Of a stretch of DNA of 64,000 nt, positions 5,732 through 48,820 are shown piece after piece. How positions within the stretch are numbered: position 1 is the first letter of the stretch; every line of letters starts with the position of its first letter. The notes under the pieces were generated by a model that had not been told where the DNA came from, did no database searches, and saw nothing but the letters and a program-made list of their open reading frames with translations. A program made the position numbers and the translations under genes. The stretch lies in IMG/VR virus record IMGVR_UViG_3300025575_000276. One strand, 5' to 3'. Source of the stretch: a virus (Duplodnaviria; Heunggongvirae; Uroviricota; Caudoviricetes).

Positions 5732-7978
5732 TTAAAACGATAATTCAAATAATAATTTTGGTGCTGTTGTTCCTATTGTGTTCGTCTCACAAGGATCTAC
5801 AAAATTGAGAGGTGGTACTTCTGCAAATGAGTCCAGATCCTTAGGGGCCTCATATCCTAGTTTTGTGTACTGGGTTTCGAAACTTTCCCTTTCAGGTAAC
5901 GCTCCAAACTGTTTATACCCATCAGTATCATAGTAGTAACCAAAGAGTCTCATATTGTTAGTTGCCTTCTGAGTACTCTTAGCAACCAACCCGGATGCAT
6001 CATACTCCTCATCCAACATCTCACACATACCCATGGCAGCGATCATGTCAAACTTTCGTTTCATCTCAATGGAGTATTCACCCAACTGTTTTAGTATTTC
6101 CTCAAAGAAGATAAGTTCACTGAAGTCACATACATACTCCTTGATCTTATTGTTGTAGTGAATCACAACCTTCTCGTGAGCAGGAGAACCGTAAATGTTT
6201 GGGATCTTACTTGCATCCACACCACCTGACCAGATACTTGGTTGCTTGGCCATGTACTGTAACATACCCTTGTCCCGGAAATAACTGATTACTTCCTTCT
6301 TGGTACGTTCAACATTGAACTTACAGTTATACCAGATAGCAAGTTTAAGGGAGATCTCGAAAGCATCCCTCTCATCTCCCGGCCTATCCAAATAGTAAGC
6401 AACGTACAAGTTACCAGTCTTCTCAGCAGACAGGTATTTCTTCTTAACTACTGCACAGAACTTGGAACCGTCAGCACCAACAAGGGAGTTATTCGCACCC
6501 ATATCAATACCGTCAATACCTCCTATGTACAGGTTCTTAAATAGCTTACCGTTAGGATCTCTCTCCGGTTCCTCCAAAACAACTACACGCCCATTGATGT
6601 TCTCTATGAACTCAACACCAGTTATCTTCCTGGTACCTTTTGCATATACCCATTGAAGTTCACCTCTCTTTGGTTTTGGCATAGTCTTATCTTGCTTCAA
6701 CCTGATCATCTGATTGGCGATCTTAATTGAGTCAAAAATGTTTGTACCAGATTTCAAGAAGGCCTCTTCTGCCCAGAATGGGTACTCTGCTTTTAAGTTC
6801 CTAAGTTCTTCTACAGCACCTTCACTTTCAAAGTTATCCCTATGAACCTTATAGTGATTGTAGGCCAATTCAATGTCCGTAACTCCATGTGAGTCCATGT
6901 ACTTCTGCATACACAGATATACCGGGAAGAAGAAACCAGTTTCGACTATTGACCCATCCTGTGTAAACTTGTGTCTGATTGGGAGCATATTGAACACACT
7001 TGGTTTGTAGTACATATCCATCAAACCTTCGAGTGCCTCACCTCCTGAAGACTCGTCACCACCTGTACCAAATCCAATTAGGGTACCGAACTTCTCTCCA
7101 CCAATTTCTGTTAGGGCCTTGGCTGTCATTACTGTTTTCTTGGACATCCTAAAGGAACCAAGCTCTTCAAACACCAGATAATTTGTACGAGTACCACGGA
7201 GTTTATCCGGGGAGTCAATTACCTGTCCGATAATCTCTGATCGCCATCCGGACTCTACACGTTCCCTATCAAGTAGGGATGCCCTTTTGTGAAACTTGGA
7301 ATTTATATTCTGACGTAATCTCTTGAATCCCTTCTGAGTATTCTCATTAACCCAGTCAAGATTTCTCCATGCTTTGTTAAGGATACCATCCTTGATAAGA
7401 TACTGTTCTTTAGATGCACAAAACATAGTCACCGAATTGGCGACAGAGTTGTACATGTTGCACCCCATATTGGCAACGTACTCAGACCAACCCACACCTC
7501 GGGGTTTAACACATACCGCATCCTTCTCTAAAGCCTTGCACCACTCGATGTAATGAGCGAAACAATAATGGGCTTCCCAGAAGTGCGGATGTGCCAGAAC
7601 ACGATCCTTCCTACCGTTAACAGTCACCACAACCGGCAACACGTAAAAGTTTAGGAAGTTGTACAAGTCTCCCGGACAGAAATATCCGTGAACTGTGTAA
7701 CCATCACGGCACCTTCTAAGTTGTTCTGTCCAGTATTCTCTATATGCAGCAGAACCAAAGGGAGCTGTTGTATAACTCCCTTTGTTCTTTTCTGCATCTA
7801 GTTTCGCAGGAGCAAACCATTTAGGGTCAAACCTGTCAGATATTGGCTTGTATTTTGACAGGTGCCACTTATCCTTATTCAGATCCATCATCTCCTCAAA
7901 TGAGGACAGTCCTTGAACTTCCTTGATGAACTCCCTATTTCTTTGTAGGACCCTGTATATTGGTTTATCTAATGCCAT
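5732..7978 (-). CDS. terL: putative terminase large subunit
   Basis: A deviant P-loop 'KPRGVGWSE' is followed by a Walker-B-like 'NYLVFEELG'. The C-terminal region has a 'LYIGGIDGIDMG' nuclease-like hhhGhDxG motif. The ORF is 748 aa. Confidence 0.5.
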   Translation of the reverse strand: MALDKPIYRVLQRNREFIKEVQGLSSFEEMMDLNKDKWHLSKYKPISDRFDPKWFAPAKLDAEKNKGSYTTAPFGSAAYREYWTEQLRRCRDGYTVHGYFCPGDLYNFLNFYVLPVVVTVNGRKDRVLAHPHFWEAHYCFAHYIEWCKALEKDAVCVKPRGVGWSEYVANMGCNMYNSVANSVTMFCASKEQYLIKDGILNKAWRNLDWVNENTQKGFKRLRQNINSKFHKRASLLDRERVESGWRSEIIGQVIDSPDKLRGTRTNYLVFEELGSFRMSKKTVMTAKALTEIGGEKFGTLIGFGTGGDESSGGEALEGLMDMYYKPSVFNMLPIRHKFTQDGSIVETGFFFPVYLCMQKYMDSHGVTDIELAYNHYKVHRDNFESEGAVEELRNLKAEYPFWAEEAFLKSGTNIFDSIKIANQMIRLKQDKTMPKPKRGELQWVYAKGTRKITGVEFIENINGRVVVLEEPERDPNGKLFKNLYIGGIDGIDMGANNSLVGADGSKFCAVVKKKYLSAEKTGNLYVAYYLDRPGDERDAFEISLKLAIWYNCKFNVERTKKEVISYFRDKGMLQYMAKQPSIWSGGVDASKIPNIYGSPAHEKVVIHYNNKIKEYVCDFSELIFFEEILKQLGEYSIEMKRKFDMIAAMGMCEMLDEEYDASGLVAKSTQKATNNMRLFGYYYDTDGYKQFGALPERESFETQYTKLGYEAPKDLDSFAEVPPLNFVDPCETNTIGTTAPKLLFELSF

Positions 7979-8724
7979 TATTCACACACCTCTCTATCAA
8001 CTATAAAGTACTGATTGTTTATAAATTTAATCACTTGAACAGAGGCCTTTCCTTTGAACACATCAACTAACCCAAATGAATTTACCCAGTAAGACTTTGT
8101 ACCTTCTTCAGCATAATCAAAGAAATCATGTTCCGGATCTCCCATCCACCCTATGTTATAAGCGCAGTATAGACCTTCATCAAAGACCTGATGCCTGTGC
8201 GTATGGCCAAACATGATATTGCATTTATATACCTCGCAGTGTTTTTTTGCAGCATGAATGTTATAATAAACACCGTGGATTAACTTAAGGTCACCTAACA
8301 TGTGGTAGGCTTTCTTTCTAGGGTTATCATAAACAGTGTACCCTCTCTTATCCAGATCAAGCGCATCCCTGATGTCCTTTATTGCAGTGCCATACTTTGA
8401 CACTTCCAACTTAAGACTCTCACGTTTGAACCTTCCTTCGTGATTACCGTACAGGAAGATCTTTTCCTTACCTTCTCCCAGAGCTTCATCGAACAGGTCA
8501 AGCAGATTGTTGGCCATCTCATACTCCCTACCAAGGTTAATACCAACAACCATCCCTTTATTATGGGCACTGATTGAAGGAAGATCCATGAAATCTCCGG
8601 TAAAGATTATACCTTTAATTCTGATTCTGTTACGCCTTATGTACCGCAGAACAGCCTTTACAAACTTAGCATTATATGCCGGGCAGTGAATGTCTGGAAG
8701 TACTAACCATCTTTCTACTATCAT
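7978..8724 (-). CDS. calcineurin-like metallophosphoesterase
   Basis: The motifs appear in order: 'LPDIHCP' (DxH), 'TGDFMD' (GDxxD), 'GNHEGR' (GNHE) and 'FGHTHRH' (GHxH). Confidence 0.7.
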   Translation of the reverse strand: MIVERWLVLPDIHCPAYNAKFVKAVLRYIRRNRIRIKGIIFTGDFMDLPSISAHNKGMVVGINLGREYEMANNLLDLFDEALGEGKEKIFLYGNHEGRFKRESLKLEVSKYGTAIKDIRDALDLDKRGYTVYDNPRKKAYHMLGDLKLIHGVYYNIHAAKKHCEVYKCNIMFGHTHRHQVFDEGLYCAYNIGWMGDPEHDFFDYAEEGTKSYWVNSFGLVDVFKGKASVQVIKFINNQYFIVDREVCE

Positions 8725-29654: not shown

Positions 29655-30111
29655 CTTTTATTTATGTGTGTATTAATTTACGCAGATTCAAAACCTTGGG
29701 ATGGACGGATTTTCCTGGCAGACAGAGCGATTATGTTAATCATGGAGTATCCATCACCAATATCGCCTAAGCTAACTACTAATGCTTACAGAGACTTGCA
29801 CATTGACTATGGTTAAGTCCGCTAATAAACAGAACTACTAACTTTAAAACTTAAAATTTATGTTTGGATTTTTCGAATTTGATTACTCCGACTTGATTTG
29901 TTCATTAGTTGCAGAAGATTATGTAGTAGCCCATATAAGAGACCTAACCCTTAAGCAAGGAATACCCGGACCAAAAAGAGTCTTAGTCCTTGAATACGGA
30001 TAGAGTTTCAGCACTACTAAATTGACGTAAACTGGACAAAAAATAAAAACATTAGCAATTAACAATAAATATTCAAAACTCTTTAGTGTAATAGCTAAAG
30101 AGTTTTCAATC

Positions 30112-30184
30112 GGGGGATTAACGCTCAATTGGCAGAGCAACGGTGACTAAACCGTAGATATTGGTTCGATCCCAGTATCCCCCA
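30112..30184 (+). tRNA. tRNA-like gene, non-canonical. It has a 6-nt anticodon loop and a 4-nt acceptor-to-D connector
   Basis: The acceptor pairs GGGGGAT with ATCCCCC perfectly. The D-arm is GCTC-AATTGGCA-GAGC. The anticodon arm is ACGGT-GACTAA-ACCGT. The T-arm is ATTGG-TTCGATC-CCAGT. Confidence 0.45.
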
Positions 30185-30209
30185 CAAATAATTTAAACCA
30201 TAATTTTTT

Positions 30210-31481
30210 ATGAAAATCAAAGATGTAACATTGGTTAACTTCGGCCAGTATGGTAACATTTCAGTCAGTTTTGACGATAATGTGACGTACCTAGTTGGTC
30301 CGAATGGATCAGCTAAAACCACCATGGGCCTGACTGGTATCTGGGCCACAATAGAAGGCATTGCTCAAAAAGGACAAAATGTATTGACCGGAGAAAGGTT
30401 CAGGTTTATCGGTGACAAAGCTGCAACATCAACTTCCACAATTACCATCTACGATGAAAAGATTGGAGAGATAAAAGCAGAAAGGAAGTTCACTAAAACT
30501 GGATCATCATTATCATTCGAAGGCCCGGCAGGAGTTACTTTATCTCAAGAGTGGTTGTCCTCCCTGTTTAACATCCTACTTATTGCTCCAAAACGGTTCA
30601 TATCTCTTACAGGACGTGAGCAAGCATTAGCTTTGGGTATTGATGTCGCTTCCTTTGAAAAGGAGCTTGCAGAGCTTAAAACTGACTATACTTTGATCAA
30701 TCGGGAACTCACTAATATGGGTAAGATTGATGTGGTAGAGGAAGCTGTAACGGTTGATATCGCTGACCTTATTGCTGAAAAGAAATTAGCAACTCAGCAC
30801 AATACCGAGGAACAGAAAAAGGAAGATGCTATTACAACAGCCGACACAACCATCACTAGCACTGAAAAATCAATAAGTGATGCTGAAGTGACTATTAAGA
30901 ACCTTCAGGAGCAAATAGTAATCTTTAAAAAGAGTTTGGAAGCTTGGCAAGAGTACAGAGGAAAGCTTGAAGATCCTGCCTATAAGGATATCGATGCTAT
31001 TGATACCAAAATGGAAACAGCCTCAACAACAAACATTGCTGCTGCAAATTACGATGCTTATCTTGTTAAAGTTAAGAACAAAGAGGATAAGACAAAGGAA
31101 CTTGCTGACAACAAGGAGAAACAAGCTGATGTCGTTGCCCGGCAACTGGCCTACATTAAAGGTAAACAACTCCCCTTCCCTGATTTAACTATCGGTGATG
31201 ATGGTGGACTATTGTTACAAGGCCGGCCACTTAAGGAACCATACTTCAGTACTGGCGAACTCACTCAGATCATTCCAATCCTTATGAGTTCCACAAATCC
31301 TGAGTTGAAATATGTCTTTATTCAGGATTTCAATTTGTTGGATGAAGTTCGTCAACAACAAGTAGAGGAAGCACTTACTTCTAAAGGGTTCCAACTCGTA
31401 ATTGAGTATGTGGGAACAAAAAAAGTACCAGGTAAGAATTGTATTTTAATGGAAGAAATCAATAACCAAAACCAAGTATAA
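30210..31481 (+). CDS. SMC/Rad50/RecF-like ABC ATPase with a central coiled coil
   Basis: The N-terminal 'YLVGPNGSAKTT' is the Walker A motif. The C-terminal 'FSTGELTQ' is signature-like and 'YVFIQDFNLLDE' is the Walker B motif. The roughly 200 aa between them are rich in Glu, Lys and Ala. Confidence 0.7.
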   Translation: MKIKDVTLVNFGQYGNISVSFDDNVTYLVGPNGSAKTTMGLTGIWATIEGIAQKGQNVLTGERFRFIGDKAATSTSTITIYDEKIGEIKAERKFTKTGSSLSFEGPAGVTLSQEWLSSLFNILLIAPKRFISLTGREQALALGIDVASFEKELAELKTDYTLINRELTNMGKIDVVEEAVTVDIADLIAEKKLATQHNTEEQKKEDAITTADTTITSTEKSISDAEVTIKNLQEQIVIFKKSLEAWQEYRGKLEDPAYKDIDAIDTKMETASTTNIAAANYDAYLVKVKNKEDKTKELADNKEKQADVVARQLAYIKGKQLPFPDLTIGDDGGLLLQGRPLKEPYFSTGELTQIIPILMSSTNPELKYVFIQDFNLLDEVRQQQVEEALTSKGFQLVIEYVGTKKVPGKNCILMEEINNQNQV

Positions 31482-31484
31482 ACA

Positions 31485-32522
31485 ATGAAAACAACACTTA
31501 AAGTGATTGCGTGGATTGCTGTCTACGTCACATTATTAGGGTTCATTTGCCCTGATCTAATCAGTGCTCCAAGCACACCCGAAGTACTCTTAGGAGTCGC
31601 CCTAATCATAGGGATAATTCTTTCATTCATTTATCATTTCAAAACCCTTTACAAAATTATGAAACCAATCATCAGTAAATTTCTCTTAGGAGTAGTGTTA
31701 TTAATGGCTTTAATAGCCTTCACAAGTTGTTCAACAGTTCCTCCCGGATACGGTGGAGTAGTAATCAAAAAGTATGGCTCTGAGAAGGGTGTTCAAAAAG
31801 TTGCCCTTGGAGTTGGAAGTTACTGGTTAGGACCTAATGAGAGCATGGAAAAGTACCCTACACATCAGGTAAACTACACTTTTACACAAGATAAGTCAGA
31901 AGGATCAAATGCCAACGAAGAGTTTACTTTCCAAACCAATGAAGGTATGGAATGTGCTACAGATTTAGGAATCGCAATGCATTATGATTTTGCACTTATT
32001 CCGCAGATGTATCAGAAATACTTAAAAGGTGAAGATGAAATACGAGGTACAGTTGTAAGAAATAGCATAAGAAACTACTTGAATAAAGTTGCCGGGGGAA
32101 TGCCTGTTGAATCCGTATATGGAAAAGGTAAATCTACTTTAATTGACAGCGTTCAACTATTAGTTAAGAAGGAGTTAGATGCTACAGGAATTATTATAGA
32201 GAAGATATATTTGATCGGATCTATTCGTATTCCAGAATCAGTTAAACAATCACTTGACTCAAAAGTAAAGGCTACACAAGATGCTCAGAAGATCGAGAAT
32301 GATGTAAGAGCAACTAAAGCAAAAGCAGAGCAAGCCATTGCAAAAGCAGAAGGTGATGCCAAGGCTTTACTTACCATAGCAGAGGCCCAAGCTAAAGCAA
32401 ATAAATTAATATCACAATCAATAACTCCAGTACTTGTTAACTACAAGGCCATTGAAAAGTGGAAAGGAGAACTACCTACATATTCTGGAGGTGGTGCAAT
32501 ACCATTTATCAATATTAAGTAA
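31485..32522 (+). CDS. SPFH/band-7 family membrane protein, similar to HflK/C or prohibitin
   Basis: It has N-terminal TM helices, an SPFH core, and a C-terminal Ala/Glu-rich coiled coil 'AKAEQAIAKAEGDAKALLTIAEAQAKANKLI'. Confidence 0.7.
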   Translation: MKTTLKVIAWIAVYVTLLGFICPDLISAPSTPEVLLGVALIIGIILSFIYHFKTLYKIMKPIISKFLLGVVLLMALIAFTSCSTVPPGYGGVVIKKYGSEKGVQKVALGVGSYWLGPNESMEKYPTHQVNYTFTQDKSEGSNANEEFTFQTNEGMECATDLGIAMHYDFALIPQMYQKYLKGEDEIRGTVVRNSIRNYLNKVAGGMPVESVYGKGKSTLIDSVQLLVKKELDATGIIIEKIYLIGSIRIPESVKQSLDSKVKATQDAQKIENDVRATKAKAEQAIAKAEGDAKALLTIAEAQAKANKLISQSITPVLVNYKAIEKWKGELPTYSGGGAIPFINIK

Positions 32523-32529
32523 TAAAAAA

Positions 32530-32592
32530 TGGGGAGGAACATAAGTCGATAAGACTAGGTGGAGAGGGATCGAATCTCTCTCCTCCCCCAAA
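32530..32592. terminator. large GC-rich hairpin after the SPFH gene
   Basis: The hairpin pairs GGGGAGGA...GGAGAGGG-atcgaa-TCTCTCTCC with TCCTCCCC. Confidence 0.5.
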
Positions 32593-32619
32593 TAATTTCA
32601 CACACTAATAATCTATCAA

Positions 32620-32847
32620 ATGAAGAATTGCGAAATAATTGATAAAACTGGAGTAATCTTCAGTGGTTACGATACCCATACCACAAGACGTATCTGGGAT
32701 TTAGCCACAATGTCCAAAGAGCAGTTCATGGAAGACCATGAAGACGATGTTGAAGATTACGAAGCCGAACTCCAAGAGTACTGGCCTAATACCCCAAAAT
32801 GGAATGGGACCTTAAAATTTGTTCAAGTACTTAGTACAGCTTACTAA
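32620..32847 (+). CDS. hypothetical acidic protein
   Basis: The ORF is 75 aa. Confidence 0.45.
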   Translation: MKNCEIIDKTGVIFSGYDTHTTRRIWDLATMSKEQFMEDHEDDVEDYEAELQEYWPNTPKWNGTLKFVQVLSTAY

Positions 32848-33203
32848 TGAGCCTACCTGACGAAGCTGAAGTATGGTGGCCTGATCACAGAGTTAAGCAC
32901 ATCTTCTCCCACTTACCCAATGTAAAATGTGGACATTTCCATGTTCACAATGCAACTTTCATCGATGATGTTGATTGTTACGCATGTCTGAAACTAGTTG
33001 ATGAAGGTTACAAACACAACCTTTCCACAAGAGCAGAGCGAGAATCTCAGCGATTAAAATCTATTGGAGGGCAGAACGGATATTGTTCATGTGGGGCACC
33101 ATTTATAATAAAACGGAACCATACAACAAAAGAGCAATTTCTTGGATGTAATAACTATCCAAAATGTAAGAATACCAAAAGTATAATACGTAAACCAGTA
33201 TGA
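32847..33203 (+). CDS. zinc-finger protein with a topoisomerase-type C4 zinc ribbon
   Basis: It carries 'CYACLK' and 'FLGCNNYPKCKNTKS'. Confidence 0.5.
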   Translation: MSLPDEAEVWWPDHRVKHIFSHLPNVKCGHFHVHNATFIDDVDCYACLKLVDEGYKHNLSTRAERESQRLKSIGGQNGYCSCGAPFIIKRNHTTKEQFLGCNNYPKCKNTKSIIRKPV

Positions 33204-34225
33204 AACGAAAACTATTTTTCTCAAATGTTGCCCATGCTCCGGGCATTGACTGCGGTTACAAACACTATTTAGATGCAAGTAAACTTGAAAAAGTTACTTG
33301 TCCTAGGTGTATGCGACTCATTAAGGAAGGAGGAAAATCTACGTTTAAAGATGGCCGTAGCCTACCCTCAGATCCGAATTTGAATGTTATTTGCGACCAG
33401 TGTGGAAAACCTATGGTTAAGCAGTCAATTGGCCAAGGTGGGGAATCAACCTATATTTGTTCTGACTACCCCAAGTGTCAGAATATAAAAAAGATTACTT
33501 TTGCAAAGTTAATTAAAGTAAGTAAAGAAACACCTAATTCCCTAATTACAAAGAATATGAGTACTATTACAGGACTAACATCTGTTATTTCAGACATCCT
33601 AAGATCGGCAGTAAACAAGCGTATATCTGTTAAAGATCAACCAATTACAAAGTTATTGAAAGATGCTGAAGTGTCCTTACATTTCTCCTCTACTTTACTT
33701 GATGTTCTGGCTGAAAAGGGACTTATTTTCAGAGAAGGTGAGAGAGCTGGTATTTATTACACAGTTTTGACTGATGTGATCCCAGATCCGCAAGTACTTG
33801 CAACTGAGTGCTACAACAGGTACAAAGAGGAGAATAAGAAATCTCGGGAACAGAAGAAACTTGACCTCGAAGATGGGAAGGTCACTACCAGAGCATACAG
33901 GAAGAAATCCATCGAAAAAGGAGAAATCCAGAATGGTACAAGTACGATTATTCGTAGAAGAACTCCGTCAATTGGCGACATCATGTATATGATGAACGAC
34001 AATAGAGTTTGCGAAGTTCGTGTATACGGTGTTCAGGAAAATGAGACTACTGGAGCTATTGAGTGTCATGTTGAACACTTTAACCATTTAGAGGAAATTG
34101 AGGAAGATATACCGTACACTGGCTGGAAAGCTACAAATACTCCTCACAAATCTCTGTTTGACTCTCCAGAAATCTTAGTACAAAGACTACTAGCAACTGT
34201 TTTAAAGCACATTAAAAGAAGATAA
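33200..34225 (+). CDS. multi-zinc-ribbon protein with a C-terminal domain of unknown function
   Basis: It carries 'CPRCMR', 'CDQCGK' and 'YICSDYPKCQNIKK'. The ORF is 341 aa. Confidence 0.5.
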   Translation: MKRKLFFSNVAHAPGIDCGYKHYLDASKLEKVTCPRCMRLIKEGGKSTFKDGRSLPSDPNLNVICDQCGKPMVKQSIGQGGESTYICSDYPKCQNIKKITFAKLIKVSKETPNSLITKNMSTITGLTSVISDILRSAVNKRISVKDQPITKLLKDAEVSLHFSSTLLDVLAEKGLIFREGERAGIYYTVLTDVIPDPQVLATECYNRYKEENKKSREQKKLDLEDGKVTTRAYRKKSIEKGEIQNGTSTIIRRRTPSIGDIMYMMNDNRVCEVRVYGVQENETTGAIECHVEHFNHLEEIEEDIPYTGWKATNTPHKSLFDSPEILVQRLLATVLKHIKRR

Positions 34226-34228
34226 TTT

Positions 34229-35407
34229 ATGAAAAGTGTAGTTTCTACAGAAAGACTTCCAATCAAATTTTGGTTGGAAGATATTGAACCCGGTGCATTA
34301 TCTCAAGCAAGGAACTTGGCTAACTTGCCATTTCTATTTAAGCATGTAGCAATCATGCCGGACAGCCATCAAGGATATGGAATGCCTATTGGTGGGGTAA
34401 TCGCCACTACAGGTGTTGTAATTCCAAATGCCGTTGGCGTGGATATCGGGTGTGGCATGTGTGCGGTCAAAACTTCCCTCAATGTAGAGGATTTTGATAG
34501 AGATGAGCTAAAGGCTATCCTATCATTAATAAGGAAATGTGTTCCAGTGGGGTTTGAGCATCACAAGGAACGTCAAGATTGGGAACTAATGCCTAATGTT
34601 GTTGGATTTGAACAGTCTCCTTCAATTGTGTTTAATCAACAGGCTTCAGCAATGAAGCAACTTGGCACACTCGGAGGTGGAAATCACTTTATCGAAATTC
34701 AAAAAGATAATGATGGCTTTATCTGGATTATGATCCATTCCGGTTCACGAAATCTCGGTAAAAAAGTTGCAGATTACTATAACAGTATAGCCAAAAAACT
34801 CAATGGATTATGGTACTCTCAGGTTGACAAGGTGAAAGACCTTGCTTTTCTTCCTATAGATACCTTAGAAGCAAAAAGCTACATGATGGAGATGCAGTAT
34901 TGTGTTGATTTTGCTCTGGCTAACAGAAAGCTGATGATGGAAAGGATTCTCGAAAGTTTCTATGATGTTATAGATACAAGTGTTATGCATGATCCAATGA
35001 TTAATATCGCCCACAACTATGCTCAGTGGGAAAACCACTTTGGTCACAATGTAATAGTCCACCGGAAAGGTGCTACATCGGCCAAAGTAGGTGAGATCGG
35101 AATCATTCCCGGTTCTATGGGTACCAAATCCTACATTGTTGAAGGGCTAGGAAATCCTGAATCCTTTATGTCCTGCTCACATGGAGCTGGCCGTAAAATG
35201 GGAAGAGGTCAGGCGACTCGGGAACTCAATCTGGAGAAAGAAATCTGGGATCTGGAGGAACAAGGTATCATTCATGGTATGCGTTCTGTTAAAGATCTTG
35301 ATGAAGCTCCCGGTGCTTACAAGTCAATTGAAAAGGTCATGGCTAATCAAAGTGATCTAGTTAAGATATTAGTAGAACTAACTCCGCTTGCGGTTATTAA
35401 AGGTTAA
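34229..35407 (+). CDS. rtcB: RtcB-family RNA ligase
   Basis: The RtcB motifs present are 'VGVDIGCGM', 'GGGNHFIE', 'HSGSRNLG' and 'HNYA'. The Cys/His metal-site residues are in place. Confidence 0.8.
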   Translation: MKSVVSTERLPIKFWLEDIEPGALSQARNLANLPFLFKHVAIMPDSHQGYGMPIGGVIATTGVVIPNAVGVDIGCGMCAVKTSLNVEDFDRDELKAILSLIRKCVPVGFEHHKERQDWELMPNVVGFEQSPSIVFNQQASAMKQLGTLGGGNHFIEIQKDNDGFIWIMIHSGSRNLGKKVADYYNSIAKKLNGLWYSQVDKVKDLAFLPIDTLEAKSYMMEMQYCVDFALANRKLMMERILESFYDVIDTSVMHDPMINIAHNYAQWENHFGHNVIVHRKGATSAKVGEIGIIPGSMGTKSYIVEGLGNPESFMSCSHGAGRKMGRGQATRELNLEKEIWDLEEQGIIHGMRSVKDLDEAPGAYKSIEKVMANQSDLVKILVELTPLAVIKG

Positions 35408-47623: not shown

Positions 47624-48820
47624 ATGGACATTGTTTCAGAAAACATTTACCGTAATTTCTTAACAGCCTATTACAATTACATTATTACGGAAGGAAAGTA
47701 CGAACTTCCAACAATAAGTATCTCAAACGTCTTTAACGGACTGTTTGGTTCAAAAGAGGAAGTAGAGTATTTACTTAAGGAAGAGGGCACTGCAATTGAG
47801 GATTATCTGACCATTACAGAGACTATTGAAGGTGTTATCAAAGTAAGTATGGAAATCACCCAAAGAGGGATTGAGAAGTTTATCATCCCTAAAATTACCG
47901 GCCTTGATGCTGTCTACAAGGGAGTTTTCGGAAGAGGTGTTACTCCCAACTTCAAGTTTACTATTTCATCTCCCAAACAAGAGATTATAGTTTTCCCGGA
48001 ACATATTGAGGAACCTTTACCAGGTGCAATGCAAATCTTCGATTACAAAGGAAGTGGCGTAACCTTCAAAACAGTTGATGGTACTATAATGGTCAATGCA
48101 ACTGAAATGGCTAAACCTTTTGGCAAATTAACCAAGGACTATCTCAAATTATCTTCGACAAAGGAGTTTATGCATGTTCTTGATAATCAATGTAGGGAGA
48201 ATAATCCCAACATTGACAGTCAACTAGTTATGATAAAACAAGGAGATGCAAGAAATGAGCAAGGGACATGGATGCATAAGGATTTAGCTACCTATTTTGC
48301 TATGTGGCTGGCCCCTGCATTTGGCCTTTGGGTTGTGCAAACGATCAACGAGTATATGCAGAAAGGGGTAATATCTCGTATACCGAATGACATTCCAAAT
48401 CTATCTAATCCTTTGGAGTCCGCTAAGAAACTACTTGAGTATACCGGCCTGTATGTGAAAGCAGAAGAGGCAAGGTTAGTTTTGGAAGCAAAGGTGATCG
48501 AAGACGAACCCAAAGTGTCAGCCTATGATCAACTGATCGGACAGGAAGGTTTATATGATTTCCGGGATGTGGCTCAGGTACTTGGTGTTAAAGGTTTTGG
48601 TAGGGGAAACCTTATCAAATTCCTTAAAGACGGTGCTATAAAGATTCTAGGGAAGAATGCAATTCCTTATCAGCCTTACTTGGATAAAGGGTACTTCAAA
48701 CGTAAGTTGTCTCCCAGAGGGTCTATGACAACTTACTTCACGTCTGAAGGTTTGGACTTTTTATGGAGACTCCTTCGTAAAAAAGGTATTGTTAAGGAAC
48801 AGTATCGTCCAGAATTCTAG
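47624..48820 (+). CDS. KilA-N domain protein, similar to an antirepressor
   Basis: The central 'QGDARNEQGTWMHKDLATYFAMWLAPAF' is typical of a KilA-N domain. The ORF is 398 aa. Confidence 0.5.
   Translation: MDIVSENIYRNFLTAYYNYIITEGKYELPTISISNVFNGLFGSKEEVEYLLKEEGTAIEDYLTITETIEGVIKVSMEITQRGIEKFIIPKITGLDAVYKGVFGRGVTPNFKFTISSPKQEIIVFPEHIEEPLPGAMQIFDYKGSGVTFKTVDGTIMVNATEMAKPFGKLTKDYLKLSSTKEFMHVLDNQCRENNPNIDSQLVMIKQGDARNEQGTWMHKDLATYFAMWLAPAFGLWVVQTINEYMQKGVISRIPNDIPNLSNPLESAKKLLEYTGLYVKAEEARLVLEAKVIEDEPKVSAYDQLIGQEGLYDFRDVAQVLGVKGFGRGNLIKFLKDGAIKILGKNAIPYQPYLDKGYFKRKLSPRGSMTTYFTSEGLDFLWRLLRKKGIVKEQYRPEF

What the first reader, a model, noticed from the sequence alone, without database searches (positions are those of the whole stretch)
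30112..32592. Self-contained cassette: a tRNA-like gene, an SMC/Rad50-like ABC ATPase and an SPFH/band-7 membrane protein
A 423-aa ATPase and a 345-aa SPFH/band-7 protein sit 3 nt apart as a clear operon. The ATPase has Walker A 'GPNGSAKTT', a coiled-coil middle, and the signature/Walker B motifs 'STGE...QDFNLLDE'. The SPFH protein is prohibitin/HflKC-like, with N-terminal TM helices and an Ala/Glu coiled coil. The operon is preceded by about 550 nt of non-coding DNA that contains a non-canonical tRNA-like gene, and it is followed by a strong GC hairpin. That layout is what an acquired moron cassette looks like. No Mre11-like nuclease partner is present, so this is not a Rad50/SbcCD pair. An ABC ATPase coupled to a membrane SPFH scaffold in a phage is not a described module. 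Possible roles are superinfection exclusion or an abortive-infection-like function, modulation of host FtsH, or a membrane-linked DNA transaction.
Basis: partly seen in the sequence, partly recalled or inferred. Interest (0 to 1): 0.75.

Follow-up and report, generated by a model that had tools for sequence, protein, structure and literature searches.

The report
Recombination-type ATPase beside SPFH lipoprotein
In a crAss-like phage, two ordinary and widespread phage genes (a DNA-recombination-type ATPase and a periplasmic SPFH membrane lipoprotein) happen to be neighbours in one narrow lineage; they are not a new two-gene system, and the only unusual features are two conserved tRNA-shaped RNAs on either side.

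Summary
They are a 423-aa SMC/Rad50/RecF-fold ATPase (30210-31481), a 345-aa SPFH/Band-7 protein 3 nt downstream (31485-32522), a non-canonical tRNA-like gene (30112-30184) and a GC-rich structure (32531-32590).

- The pair is adjacent only in one narrow, fully syntenic phage lineage.
- None of 25 more distant ATPase loci carries an SPFH gene. At least 16 of them carry a recombination exonuclease and/or a RecT-like annealing protein within 1.8 kb.
- None of 80 viral SPFH loci carries such an ATPase. In 59 of them a small transmembrane ORF lies immediately upstream, and that ORF is fused to the SPFH gene here.
- The SPFH domain is a periplasm-facing lipoprotein with an invariant lipobox Cys. 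The ATPase is soluble.

Best reading: these are two independent accessory genes. One belongs to PHROG 1499, which is recombination-associated. The other belongs to PHROG 200/1130, an envelope module found in 765 sequenced phages.

The "hairpin" is a conserved mimic of a tRNA acceptor stem and T-arm, not a terminator. The upstream ~500 nt is more conserved than the flanking genes. Interest is low for the pair and modest for the RNAs.

The parts
29664..30003 (+). Highly conserved leader region. It holds two small ORFs (50 aa at 29664-29816, 47 aa at 29860-30003) whose coding status is doubtful. It may be a structured non-coding RNA or a regulatory region.
   Evidence: The region is 88-95% nt-identical to relative L035, against 55-75% for the flanking protein genes. 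Substitutions in ORF50 fall [4,4,2] by codon position, with 6 non-synonymous against 2 synonymous codon changes. Rfam has no family match. RNAalifold gives helices with few informative changes.
30075..30106 (.). Conserved 12-bp hairpin (AAAACTCTTTAG...CTAAAGAGTTTT) that looks like a bidirectional intrinsic terminator. It ends 5 nt before the tRNA-like gene.
   Evidence: The terminator scan picks it up. Two pairs show compensatory double changes between relatives, and further variants keep the stem.
30112..30184 (+). tRNA-like gene 1. It has a cloverleaf with canonical D-loop (GG) and T-loop (UUCGAUC) and a 7-bp acceptor stem. It also has a 6-nt anticodon loop (GACUAA) and 2 extra nt between acceptor and D stems, so it is probably non-decoding.
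   Evidence: Rfam RF00005 scores 44.7 bits with alignment. ARAGORN is negative. MFE is -27.8 kcal/mol, z -3.4. It is conserved in every lineage member: the anticodon arm is invariant, while the 3' strand of the T-stem varies without compensation.
30210..31481 (+). Soluble SMC/Rad50/RecF-fold ABC-type ATPase with a ~170-residue coiled-coil insert. It belongs to PHROG 1499.
31485..31658 (+). N-terminal two-TM module of the SPFH ORF (residues 1-58). It is homologous to the small membrane protein that is a separate upstream gene in most phages, and is fused in frame here.
   Evidence: phrog_1130 'membrane protein' matches residues 1-52 at E 9.5e-5. In 59 of 80 viral SPFH loci a small TM ORF of 130 aa or less ends at the SPFH start, and 53 of these have 2 or more TM segments with the shared motif P.L.S..S. 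A separate 84-aa gene is seen in Pseudomonas phage vB_Pae_U2.
31659..32522 (+). SPFH/Band-7 lipoprotein precursor, starting at Met59. It has a signal peptide with lipobox Cys82, a periplasm-facing SPFH domain and a C-terminal Ala/Glu-rich helix.
   Evidence: Pfam Band_7 gives 1.1e-19. phrog_200 'lipoprotein' gives 1.7e-69. Cys82 is invariant and Met59 nearly invariant in 27 homologues, most of which start at the Met59 position. A profile search hits QmcA, prohibitin 1/2 and HflK among solved structures. tblastn finds it in 765 phage records.
It has an 8-bp acceptor-like stem, a T-arm mimic (GAGGG-AUCGAAU-CUCUC) and a short variable hairpin. It has no D-arm and no U-tract.
   Evidence: The fold is -27.3 kcal/mol, z about -3. 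The sequence is invariant in relatives except in the middle hairpin, whose loop length varies. ARAGORN's mitochondrial mode calls it a D-armless tRNA in three genomes. The Rfam tRNA model does not detect it, and the terminator scan does not list it.
32606..32617 (+). Motif TAATAATCTATC immediately before the next gene (start at 32620). It may be a phage promoter or initiation signal.
   Evidence: There are three exact copies, all on the + strand in intergenic DNA just upstream of genes (20910, 32606, 36997). With one mismatch allowed there are 6 matches against 1.7 expected.

Best explanation
The locus is not a two-protein machine. It is a stretch of the early/middle region of a crAss-like phage where two independent accessory genes lie side by side.

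Gene 1, the ATPase.
- Shown: it encodes a soluble ATPase with an SMC-type head and a short antiparallel coiled coil. It has no zinc hook and no Mre11 partner. It belongs to a phage family (PHROG 1499) that elsewhere is encoded next to a RecE-like or PD-(D/E)XK exonuclease and a RecT-like annealing protein.
- Inferred mechanism: ATP-driven head dimerisation on DNA ends or gaps assists the phage's own exonuclease/annealase recombination-dependent replication. In this genome those genes lie 25 kb downstream, at 56-62 kb.

Gene 2, the SPFH protein.
- Shown: it encodes an exported SPFH lipoprotein fused to its usual small two-TM partner.
- Inferred mechanism: after export through the third hydrophobic segment, and probably lipidation at Cys82, the SPFH domain and its Ala/Glu helix assemble on the periplasmic face of the inner membrane. 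The assembly would be a ring or cage like those of HflK/C, QmcA and prohibitin, and would insulate or remodel a membrane patch during infection. Candidate roles are control of a membrane protease, of lysis timing, or of entry of competing phage DNA.

Because the ATPase is cytoplasmic and the SPFH domain periplasmic, direct partnership is unlikely.

RNA elements.
- Shown: the unit is bracketed by two conserved tRNA-shaped RNAs and preceded by a conserved hairpin.
- Inferred role: these are most simply transcript processing or stability signals, or non-decoding tRNA mimics.
For: ATPase fold and family.

Genomic context of ATPase homologues:
- Prophage and phage contigs show PDDEXK_1, RNase H, DnaB and DUF3799 as neighbours.
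- Conserved neighbour clusters were identified as exonuclease (phrog_149/4763, phrog_298), RecT (Pfam 5.9e-35; phrog_561 at 2.5e-77), a replication initiator and a DnaC-like loader.
- Among 147 neighbours in 25 loci, the commonest PHROGs are exonucleases, RecE-like, RecT-like and a Holliday-junction resolvase. No SPFH family appears among the 25 most frequent families.
- 16 of 25 loci have an exonuclease and/or a RecT-like gene within 1.8 kb.
- In Arthrobacter phages ArV1 and Tiff81 the homologue sits beside RecE-like, RecT-like, SSB and exonuclease genes.

No co-conservation of the pair:
- SPFH lies next to the ATPase only in the window's own lineage.
- None of 80 SPFH loci has the ATPase, or any ORF with an N-terminal GxNGxGK[ST] motif.
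- The fused SPFH relatives at 53-54% identity lack it.

True partner of the SPFH gene: a small TM ORF lies upstream in 59 of 80 loci, and phrog_1130 matches residues 1-52.

Lipoprotein and topology: Cys82 is invariant and most homologues start at Met59. Hydropathy and charge distribution are given.

SPFH is a common stand-alone phage gene: 765 records; in Pokken it is a single gene followed by its own terminator.

Other points: tight spacing is the norm in this window, and there is no G+C anomaly.
Against: - The adjacency and tight spacing are kept in every member of the lineage found, down to 68% ATPase identity.
- The unit is framed by conserved RNA elements, as a transcription unit would be.
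- In this lineage the ATPase is detached from the recombination genes and carries a lineage-specific Walker A change. Gly35 is present in all 24 outgroup sequences and is Ala here. This could signal a change of role.
- 9 of 25 other ATPase loci show no recognisable recombination gene nearby.
- The recombination role rests on gene neighbourhood only. Neither family has a tested function in the literature I could search.
- The family has an unusual Walker B (YVFIQD) and no H-loop His, so even ATP hydrolysis is unproven.
- The periplasmic topology is predicted from sequence, not measured.
Confidence: 0.7

Rival explanations
1. Lineage-specific exaptation. In this crAss-like lineage the ATPase left the recombination module and now works with the two-TM/SPFH protein, for example by tethering DNA or a DNA transaction to a membrane microdomain.
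For: - Adjacency with 2-13 nt spacing is kept in all lineage members.
- The Walker A Gly35 to Ala change is lineage-specific.
- The gene lies 25 kb from the RecT-like and exonuclease genes.
- The pair is bracketed by conserved RNA elements.
Against: - All lineage members share the entire local gene order, so the conserved adjacency carries no independent weight.
- There is no independent recurrence in 25 ATPase loci or in 80 SPFH loci.
- The SPFH domain is predicted to be periplasmic and the ATPase cytoplasmic.
- 87 of 96 family-invariant ATPase positions are retained, so there is no sign of large-scale remodelling.
- In relatives a third, unrelated Hc1-like gene sits in the same unit.
Confidence: 0.08
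2. The pair is an acquired defence-type moron, acting in superinfection exclusion or abortive infection. It would be analogous to the ABC-ATPase defence systems Septu PtuA, PARIS AriA and Gabija GajA.
For: - PADLOC models for PtuA, GajA, AriA and mad3 hit the ATPase weakly (E 1e-7 to 1e-4).
- tRNA-related genes, including RtcB, are nearby.
Against: - No effector nuclease partner (HNH, Toprim or OLD) is adjacent.
- The SPFH protein has no PADLOC hit at E<=1.
- ATPase homologues sit among replication and recombination genes, not in defence islands.
- There is no compositional sign of recent acquisition.
- The SPFH gene alone could still act in exclusion. That possibility is part of the main explanation, not of this one.
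Confidence: 0.06
3. A true Rad50/SbcC-type double-strand-break enzyme whose Mre11/SbcD-type nuclease is encoded elsewhere in the genome, namely the Metallophos ORF at 7978-8724 on the minus strand.
For: - A 248-aa calcineurin-like phosphoesterase with D.H / GD / GNHE motifs exists in the window.
Against: - There is no CxxC zinc hook: the protein has a single Cys, at residue 411.
- Rad50 NCBIfam models score about 20 bits against cut-offs of 700 and above.
- The Metallophos ORF is 21 kb away, on the other strand, next to the terminase.
- In other genomes the family pairs with PD-(D/E)XK or RecE-type exonucleases, not with Mre11.
Confidence: 0.04
4. The interesting entity is RNA, not protein. 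The two conserved tRNA-shaped elements, and the ultra-conserved leader, would be functional non-decoding tRNA mimics. They could be RNase P/Z processing punctuation that releases the ATPase-SPFH mRNA, or decoys or substrates linked to tRNA-targeting host defences and the phage RtcB ligase. This reading is compatible with the main explanation.
For: - Both elements are nearly invariant while the neighbouring genes diverge to about 70% nt identity.
- The anticodon arm with its aberrant 6-nt loop is invariant.
- Element 2 keeps the acceptor stem and T-arm but varies in its middle hairpin.
- RtcB lies 1.7 kb downstream.
- All other tRNA genes of this phage are also sub-canonical.
Against: - Only about 5 distinct variants exist, all from one lineage, so conservation could partly reflect recent common ancestry.
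- The T-stem of element 1 accumulates uncompensated changes, as in a decaying pseudogene.
- Element 2 is not recognised by the Rfam tRNA model.
- No expression data are available.
Confidence: 0.25

Closest known systems
Rad50/SbcC, SMC and RecF/RecN head-type ABC ATPases
   Different: The protein is only 423 aa. It has no zinc hook or hinge and no Mre11/SbcD or kleisin partner. Walker B reads YVFIQD instead of hhhhDE, and Glu399 stands where the H-loop His is expected. Pfam and NCBIfam models of these families score below their cut-offs.
PHROG 1499 (unknown function), including the Arthrobacter phage 'recombinational DNA repair ATPase' (ArV1 gp36) and 'ASCE ATPase' (Tiff81 gp66)
   Same: The profile matches full length at E 8.6e-24. 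Size and architecture are the same.
   Different: In ArV1, Tiff81 and most Bacteroidota relatives the gene sits beside RecE/RecT/SSB/exonuclease genes. Here it sits beside an SPFH gene and carries Ala instead of Gly before the P-loop Lys.
Defence ABC ATPases: PtuA (Septu/retron), AriA (PARIS) and GajA (Gabija)
   Same: They share the ABC head fold and P-loop region.
PHROG 200 'lipoprotein' with PHROG 1130 'membrane protein', for example Stenotrophomonas phage Pokken lipoprotein YP_009883670, Burkholderia phage phiE125 gp43/gp44, and Pseudomonas phage vB_Pae_U2 WZB34876/WZB34877
   Same: Identity is 38-43% over the SPFH lipoprotein. The lipobox Cys is the same. The same small two-TM partner is present.
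   Different: Here, and in a few relatives (P0124, P0126, P0182), the two-TM partner is fused in frame to the lipoprotein precursor, giving a 345-aa ORF.
HflK/HflC, QmcA (with its NfeD partner YbbJ) and prohibitins: cage-forming SPFH proteins
   Same: The SPFH domain is followed by an Ala/Glu-rich helix. A profile search hits QmcA at 2.4e-6, prohibitin 1 at 1.5e-5 and HflK at 1.4e-3. The SPFH domain is extracytoplasmic, as in HflK/C. The gene is paired with a small membrane protein, as in NfeD-SPFH operons.
   Different: The anchor is a lipoprotein signal rather than an N-terminal TM helix. The hflK NCBIfam model scores 31 bits against a cut-off of 159. The partner is not an NfeD protein; Pfam gave no NfeD hit on the ORF. 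No link to FtsH has been shown.
tRNA mimics: bacterial and phage YrlA Y RNAs, plant-virus 3' tRNA-like structures, phage pseudo-tRNAs
   Same: Element 1 has a cloverleaf or acceptor/T-arm shape with canonical D- and T-loops. An RtcB ligase gene is nearby, as in bacterial rsr-yrlA-rtcBA operons (my own knowledge, plus the titles listed).
   Different: There is no Rfam match to YrlA or any family other than tRNA. No Ro60/TROVE gene was seen among the ORFs that were scanned. Function is untested.

Membership tests
SMC/Rad50/RecF-type ABC ATPase superfamily | Head fold: N-terminal Walker A lobe plus C-terminal signature/Walker B lobe, joined by an antiparallel coiled coil | tested here: met
SMC/Rad50/RecF-type ABC ATPase superfamily | Canonical catalytic motifs: Walker A GxxxxGK[ST], Walker B hhhhDE, H-loop His | tested here: inconclusive
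   Walker A Lys36 and Thr37 are present, but Gly35 is Ala in this lineage. Walker B reads YVFIQD across the family, and Glu399 replaces the H-loop His. The Q-loop, signature and D-loop are present.
Rad50/SbcC proper | CxxC zinc hook at the coiled-coil apex | tested here: not met
   The protein has a single Cys (residue 411) and none in residues 145-320.
Rad50/SbcC proper | Adjacent Mre11/SbcD phosphoesterase partner | tested here: not met
   The neighbours are a membrane protein and the SPFH gene. The only Metallophos ORF is at 7978-8724 on the minus strand, 21 kb away. In relatives the partners are PD-(D/E)XK or RecE-type nucleases.
Rad50/SbcC proper | Curated model score (NCBIfam Rad50 / Pfam SMC_N) | tested here: not met
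   PRK03918 scores 20.3 bits against a cut-off of 700. SMC_N scores 17.6 against 40.
PHROG 1499 | Full-length profile match | tested here: met
   E 8.6e-24, covering residues 1-405 and profile positions 3-412 of 427.
Known anti-phage defence systems (PADLOC-DB 2.0) | Full-length match of each component to a system model, plus the system's partner genes | tested here: not met
   The PtuA and GajA models match only the N-terminal ~40-75 residues of the ATPase. A few other models (mad3, AriA, LmuB, one JetC model) cover only part of it at weak E-values. The SPFH protein has no hit at E<=1. No nuclease partner is present.
SPFH / Band 7 (Pfam PF01145) | Domain score above the Pfam gathering cut-off | tested here: met
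   71.5 bits against 23.6, residues 84-288.
HflK/HflC (FtsH modulators) | Equivalog model score; N-terminal TM anchor; paired K and C paralogues | tested here: not met
   TIGR01933 scores 31.3 bits against a cut-off of 159.4. There is a single SPFH gene with a lipoprotein signal.
PHROG 200 phage SPFH lipoprotein | Profile match and lipobox Cys after a signal peptide | tested here: met
   E 1.7e-69. Cys82 is invariant in 27 homologues. Lipidation itself cannot be tested here.
Two-TM protein plus SPFH lipoprotein gene pair (PHROG 1130 + PHROG 200) | Small membrane ORF immediately upstream of, or fused to, the SPFH gene | tested here: met
   Residues 1-52 match phrog_1130. The arrangement is seen in 59 of 80 viral loci.
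tRNA (Rfam RF00005) | Covariance-model score above the gathering threshold | tested here: met
   44.7 bits against 29 for 30112-30184.
tRNA (functional decoder) | 7-nt anticodon loop with U33; standard 2-nt acceptor-D connector; detection by a tRNA finder | tested here: not met
   The loop is the 6-nt GACUAA and there are 2 extra nt before the D-stem. ARAGORN is negative even with -ps.
Moron (independently acquired cassette) | Own promoter and terminator, deviant composition, patchy presence among close relatives | tested here: not met
   G+C is 0.38-0.39, the same as the surroundings. The cassette is present in all lineage members within conserved synteny. There is no canonical terminator downstream. 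Only the upstream hairpin fits.

The most novel reading that the evidence does not exclude
The two near-invariant tRNA-shaped RNAs that bracket the ATPase-SPFH unit, together with the ~450-nt leader that is more conserved than any neighbouring gene, are functional non-decoding tRNA mimics of a crAss-like phage. The first is a cloverleaf with a fixed 6-nt anticodon loop. The second is an acceptor/T-arm mimic without a D-arm.

They could act as RNase P/Z 'punctuation' that defines the mRNA. Alternatively they could act as decoys or substrates in a contest with tRNA-targeting host defences, alongside the phage's RtcB ligase and its set of aberrant tRNA genes.

A still more novel reading is that the ATPase has been recruited to work with the SPFH protein. 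This is not strictly excluded, but I put it at about 0.08.
Probability: 0.2. Interest if true: 0.55.

Novelty: new member of a known kind. Interest (0 to 1): 0.22.

Why it matters
The main value is as a correction. A tidy-looking 'ATPase + membrane scaffold' operon turns out to be a chance neighbourhood of two common phage gene families. It should not be catalogued as a new module or defence candidate.

Three by-products may be useful.
1. PHROG 1499, annotated 'unknown function', can now be tied by gene neighbourhood to RecT/RecE-type recombination modules across Bacteroidota and Actinobacteria phages.
2. The widespread phage SPFH lipoprotein (PHROG 200, 765 sequenced phages) has a consistent small two-TM partner (PHROG 1130) and is predicted to act on the periplasmic side. 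This narrows hypotheses for a gene whose role the literature still calls unclear (PMC13239085).
3. A crAss-like lineage carries conserved, non-decoding tRNA-like RNAs and an RtcB ligase. This is a small, testable lead on phage RNA biology.

Tried and rejected
- Amber-suppressor idea. The loop GACUAA contains CUA, and crAss-like phages are known to recode TAG. I rejected it because TAG ends 9 of 58 ORFs, the late genes visible here (portal, TerL) are intact under the standard code, and the loop has 6 nt rather than 7.
- tRNA-gene integration (att) scar. The 3' ends of the two tRNA-like elements are only loosely similar (ATCCCCCA against CTCCCCCA) and are not a direct repeat. No integrase is nearby.
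- Intrinsic terminator for the downstream GC structure. It has no U-tract, the scan does not list it, and its sequence looks like an acceptor stem plus T-arm.
- Y RNA/YrlA or another known RNA family. There is no Rfam hit at E<=10 other than tRNA.
- Close DNA relatives. None were found in INPHARED phages. Neither the single ATPase sequence nor either RNA element found a match in IMG/VR.
- My first metagenome scan used a pattern with one N too many and found nothing. The corrected pattern found 5 contigs, all from the same lineage.
- Literature searches for a tested function of phage SPFH proteins, or of an SMC-like ATPase in RecET modules, returned only annotation-level mentions.
- A second copy of either gene elsewhere in the window. 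None was found.

Full report
**What is in the sequence**

The window is part of a phage genome. A portal gene and a large terminase gene lie on the minus strand at 2-8 kb. A long plus-strand block encodes DNA methyltransferase, a Dda-like helicase, family-A DNA polymerase, DnaB-like helicase, a RecT-like protein and an ExoVIII-like protein. The terminase is 27-37% identical to those of crAss-like phages of Bacteroidota.

At the coordinates given there are two ORFs, 30210-31481 (423 aa) and 31485-32522 (345 aa), 3 nt apart. Rfam finds a tRNA at exactly 30112-30184 (44.7 bits against a gathering score of 29). ARAGORN finds nothing there, even with relaxed thresholds. The Rfam alignment explains why: the anticodon loop has 6 nt (GACUAA between ACGGU and ACCGU) and two extra bases precede the D-stem. 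The region 32531-32590 folds stably (-27.3 kcal/mol, z about -3).

**The ATPase**

Pfam AAA_23, AAA_15 and SMC_N match below their cut-offs. PHROG 1499, annotated 'unknown function', matches end to end at E 8.6e-24.

An alignment of 27 homologues shows these motifs:
- the P-loop;
- an invariant Q-loop Gln138;
- the signature FSTGE;
- a family-wide unusual Walker B, YVFIQD;
- a D-loop Asp378;
- Glu399 where the H-loop His would be.

**Where the ATPase family lives**

Homologues at 33-49% identity occur in phage-sized contigs and in Bacteroidota chromosomes, for example a Limibacterium fermenti prophage region.

I examined 25 independent loci outside the window's own lineage.
- None has an SPFH gene within 6 kb.
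- The conserved neighbours are an exonuclease (phrog_149/4763, immediately upstream in 8 loci), PD-(D/E)XK exonucleases (phrog_298), DUF3799, RecT-like proteins (Pfam RecT 5.9e-35; phrog_561 at 2.5e-77), a replication initiator, a DnaC-like loader and DnaB.
- Across 147 neighbouring proteins, the commonest PHROGs are exonucleases, RecE-like, RecT-like and a Holliday-junction resolvase.
- A local iterative search finds an exonuclease and/or a RecT-like gene within 1.8 kb in 16 of the 25 loci.

The only cultured-phage homologues are in Arthrobacter phages. There they sit next to RecE-like and RecT-like genes (ArV1) or between an exonuclease and SSB (Tiff81). The family is therefore tied to recombination and replication modules across two bacterial phyla. 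That link is shown. A role as an accessory to exonuclease/annealase recombination is inferred from it.

**The SPFH protein**

Pfam Band_7 is well above threshold, and PHROG 200 'lipoprotein' matches at 1.7e-69. tblastn finds relatives in 765 phage records of very diverse hosts.

Most homologues are about 285 aa. They begin at the position of Met59 with a lipoprotein signal peptide, and Cys82 is invariant. Residues 1-52 match PHROG 1130, a small membrane protein. In 59 of 80 IMG/VR loci a small TM ORF ends right at the SPFH start, and 53 of these have two or more TM segments and share the motif P.L.S..S. In this lineage and a few others that partner is fused in frame.

The charge distribution and the three hydrophobic segments place the SPFH domain on the periplasmic side. 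The ATPase has no hydrophobic segment. The profile's nearest solved relatives are QmcA, prohibitins and HflK, all of which build cages. I found no experimental function for the phage family. A 2026 paper states that the reason for its presence in phages 'remains unclear' (PMC13239085).

**Are the two genes a pair?**

From the ATPase side the count is 0 of 25 loci. From the SPFH side it is 0 of 80 loci. This holds even at E<=10 with the family HMM, and with a search for any ORF carrying an N-terminal GxNGxGK[ST] motif. The nearest SPFH relatives with the same fused architecture (53-54% identity) have only small unrelated neighbours.

The pair is adjacent only in the window's own lineage: contigs L001/2, L006/7, L035-37 and L122-126, with ATPase identity of 68-96%. 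In those contigs the whole neighbourhood is syntenic, from the upstream membrane protein to RtcB. Tight spacing is usual in this genome, with 20 of 54 same-strand junctions at 15 nt or less. G+C content is unremarkable.

Points that keep a small probability for a lineage-specific partnership:
- the lineage-specific Walker A Gly35 to Ala change;
- the separation from the phage's RecT-like and exonuclease genes at 56-62 kb;
- the shared RNA brackets.

**The RNA elements**

The stretch 29680-30160 is 88-95% identical to a relative whose flanking genes are only 55-75% identical. The two small ORFs in it show a substitution pattern that is not codon-like.

A 12-bp hairpin at 30075-30106 keeps its stem through compensatory changes. 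tRNA-like element 1 follows 5 nt later. Its anticodon arm is invariant, while the 3' strand of its T-stem drifts without compensation.

ARAGORN's mitochondrial mode calls it a D-armless tRNA in three genomes. Rfam does not detect it. It has no U-tract.

In relatives an extra Hc1-like gene lies between the SPFH gene and this element. The bracketed unit therefore varies in content. I read these RNAs as processing or stability signals, or as tRNA mimics. This is inference only.

**Verdict**

Two real genes, each a member of an existing phage family, lie next to each other by lineage history rather than as a system. The cassette is ordinary. The conserved tRNA-like RNAs and the leader are the only mildly unusual features.

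Noticed in passing
window 20331-20905 (+): A cluster of tRNA genes, all sub-canonical. The gene at 20331-20436 has a ~35-nt insert in the anticodon region and three mismatched acceptor pairs. The gene at 20507-20586 has 6 extra nt in the anticodon arm. The gene at 20686-20760 only just passes Rfam (32 bits). A further T-loop-like site (GGTTCGATTCC at 20883) is uncalled. ARAGORN finds none with default settings. Short inserts in phage tRNAs alongside a phage RtcB ligase deserve a look.
   Followed up: partly
window 34229-35407 (+): A full-length RtcB RNA ligase (Pfam 6e-118) lies 1.7 kb downstream of the cassette. It is preceded by two proteins with topoisomerase-type zinc ribbons (32847-33203 and 33200-34225). 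The gene is conserved in relatives.
   Followed up: no
window 29664-29830 (+), extending to 30003: This stretch is more conserved (88-95% nt identity) than any nearby protein gene. Substitutions do not favour third codon positions. It may be a structured non-coding RNA, with no Rfam match.
   Followed up: partly
L001 8346-8537, L007 2978-3172, L035 7044-7238 (absent from the window at about 32523-32530): A 63-64-aa Hc1-like (PF07432, histone-H1-like) gene lies between the SPFH gene and tRNA-like element 2 in relatives. It is deleted in the window.
   Followed up: partly
window 20910, 32606, 36997 (+): The motif TAATAATYTATC occurs exactly three times. All copies are on the + strand, in intergenic DNA just upstream of genes, and two follow tRNA-like elements. 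With one mismatch allowed there are 6 matches against 1.7 expected. It may be a phage promoter.
   Followed up: partly
window 7978-8724 (-): A 248-aa calcineurin-like phosphoesterase (Pfam Metallophos 7.9e-6; motifs D.H / GD / GNHE) lies directly next to the large terminase gene.
   Followed up: partly
window 30210-31481, ATPase residues 35, 372-373 and 399: Across the family, Walker B is YVFIQD (Gln372 invariant) and Glu399 replaces the H-loop His. In this lineage alone the Gly before the P-loop Lys is Ala. This suggests a slow or switch-like ATPase.
   Followed up: partly
L013 4043-4918, and homologues in L012, L014, L018 and L030: A conserved ~270-290-aa protein with no Pfam or PHROG match sits just upstream of the exonuclease-ATPase pair in five phage contigs. 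That is the position where an annealing protein would be expected, so it may be an unrecognised SSAP family.
   Followed up: no
window 47624-48820 (+): A KilA-N plus ANT (antirepressor) domain protein lies in an otherwise lytic-looking crAss-like genome.
   Followed up: no
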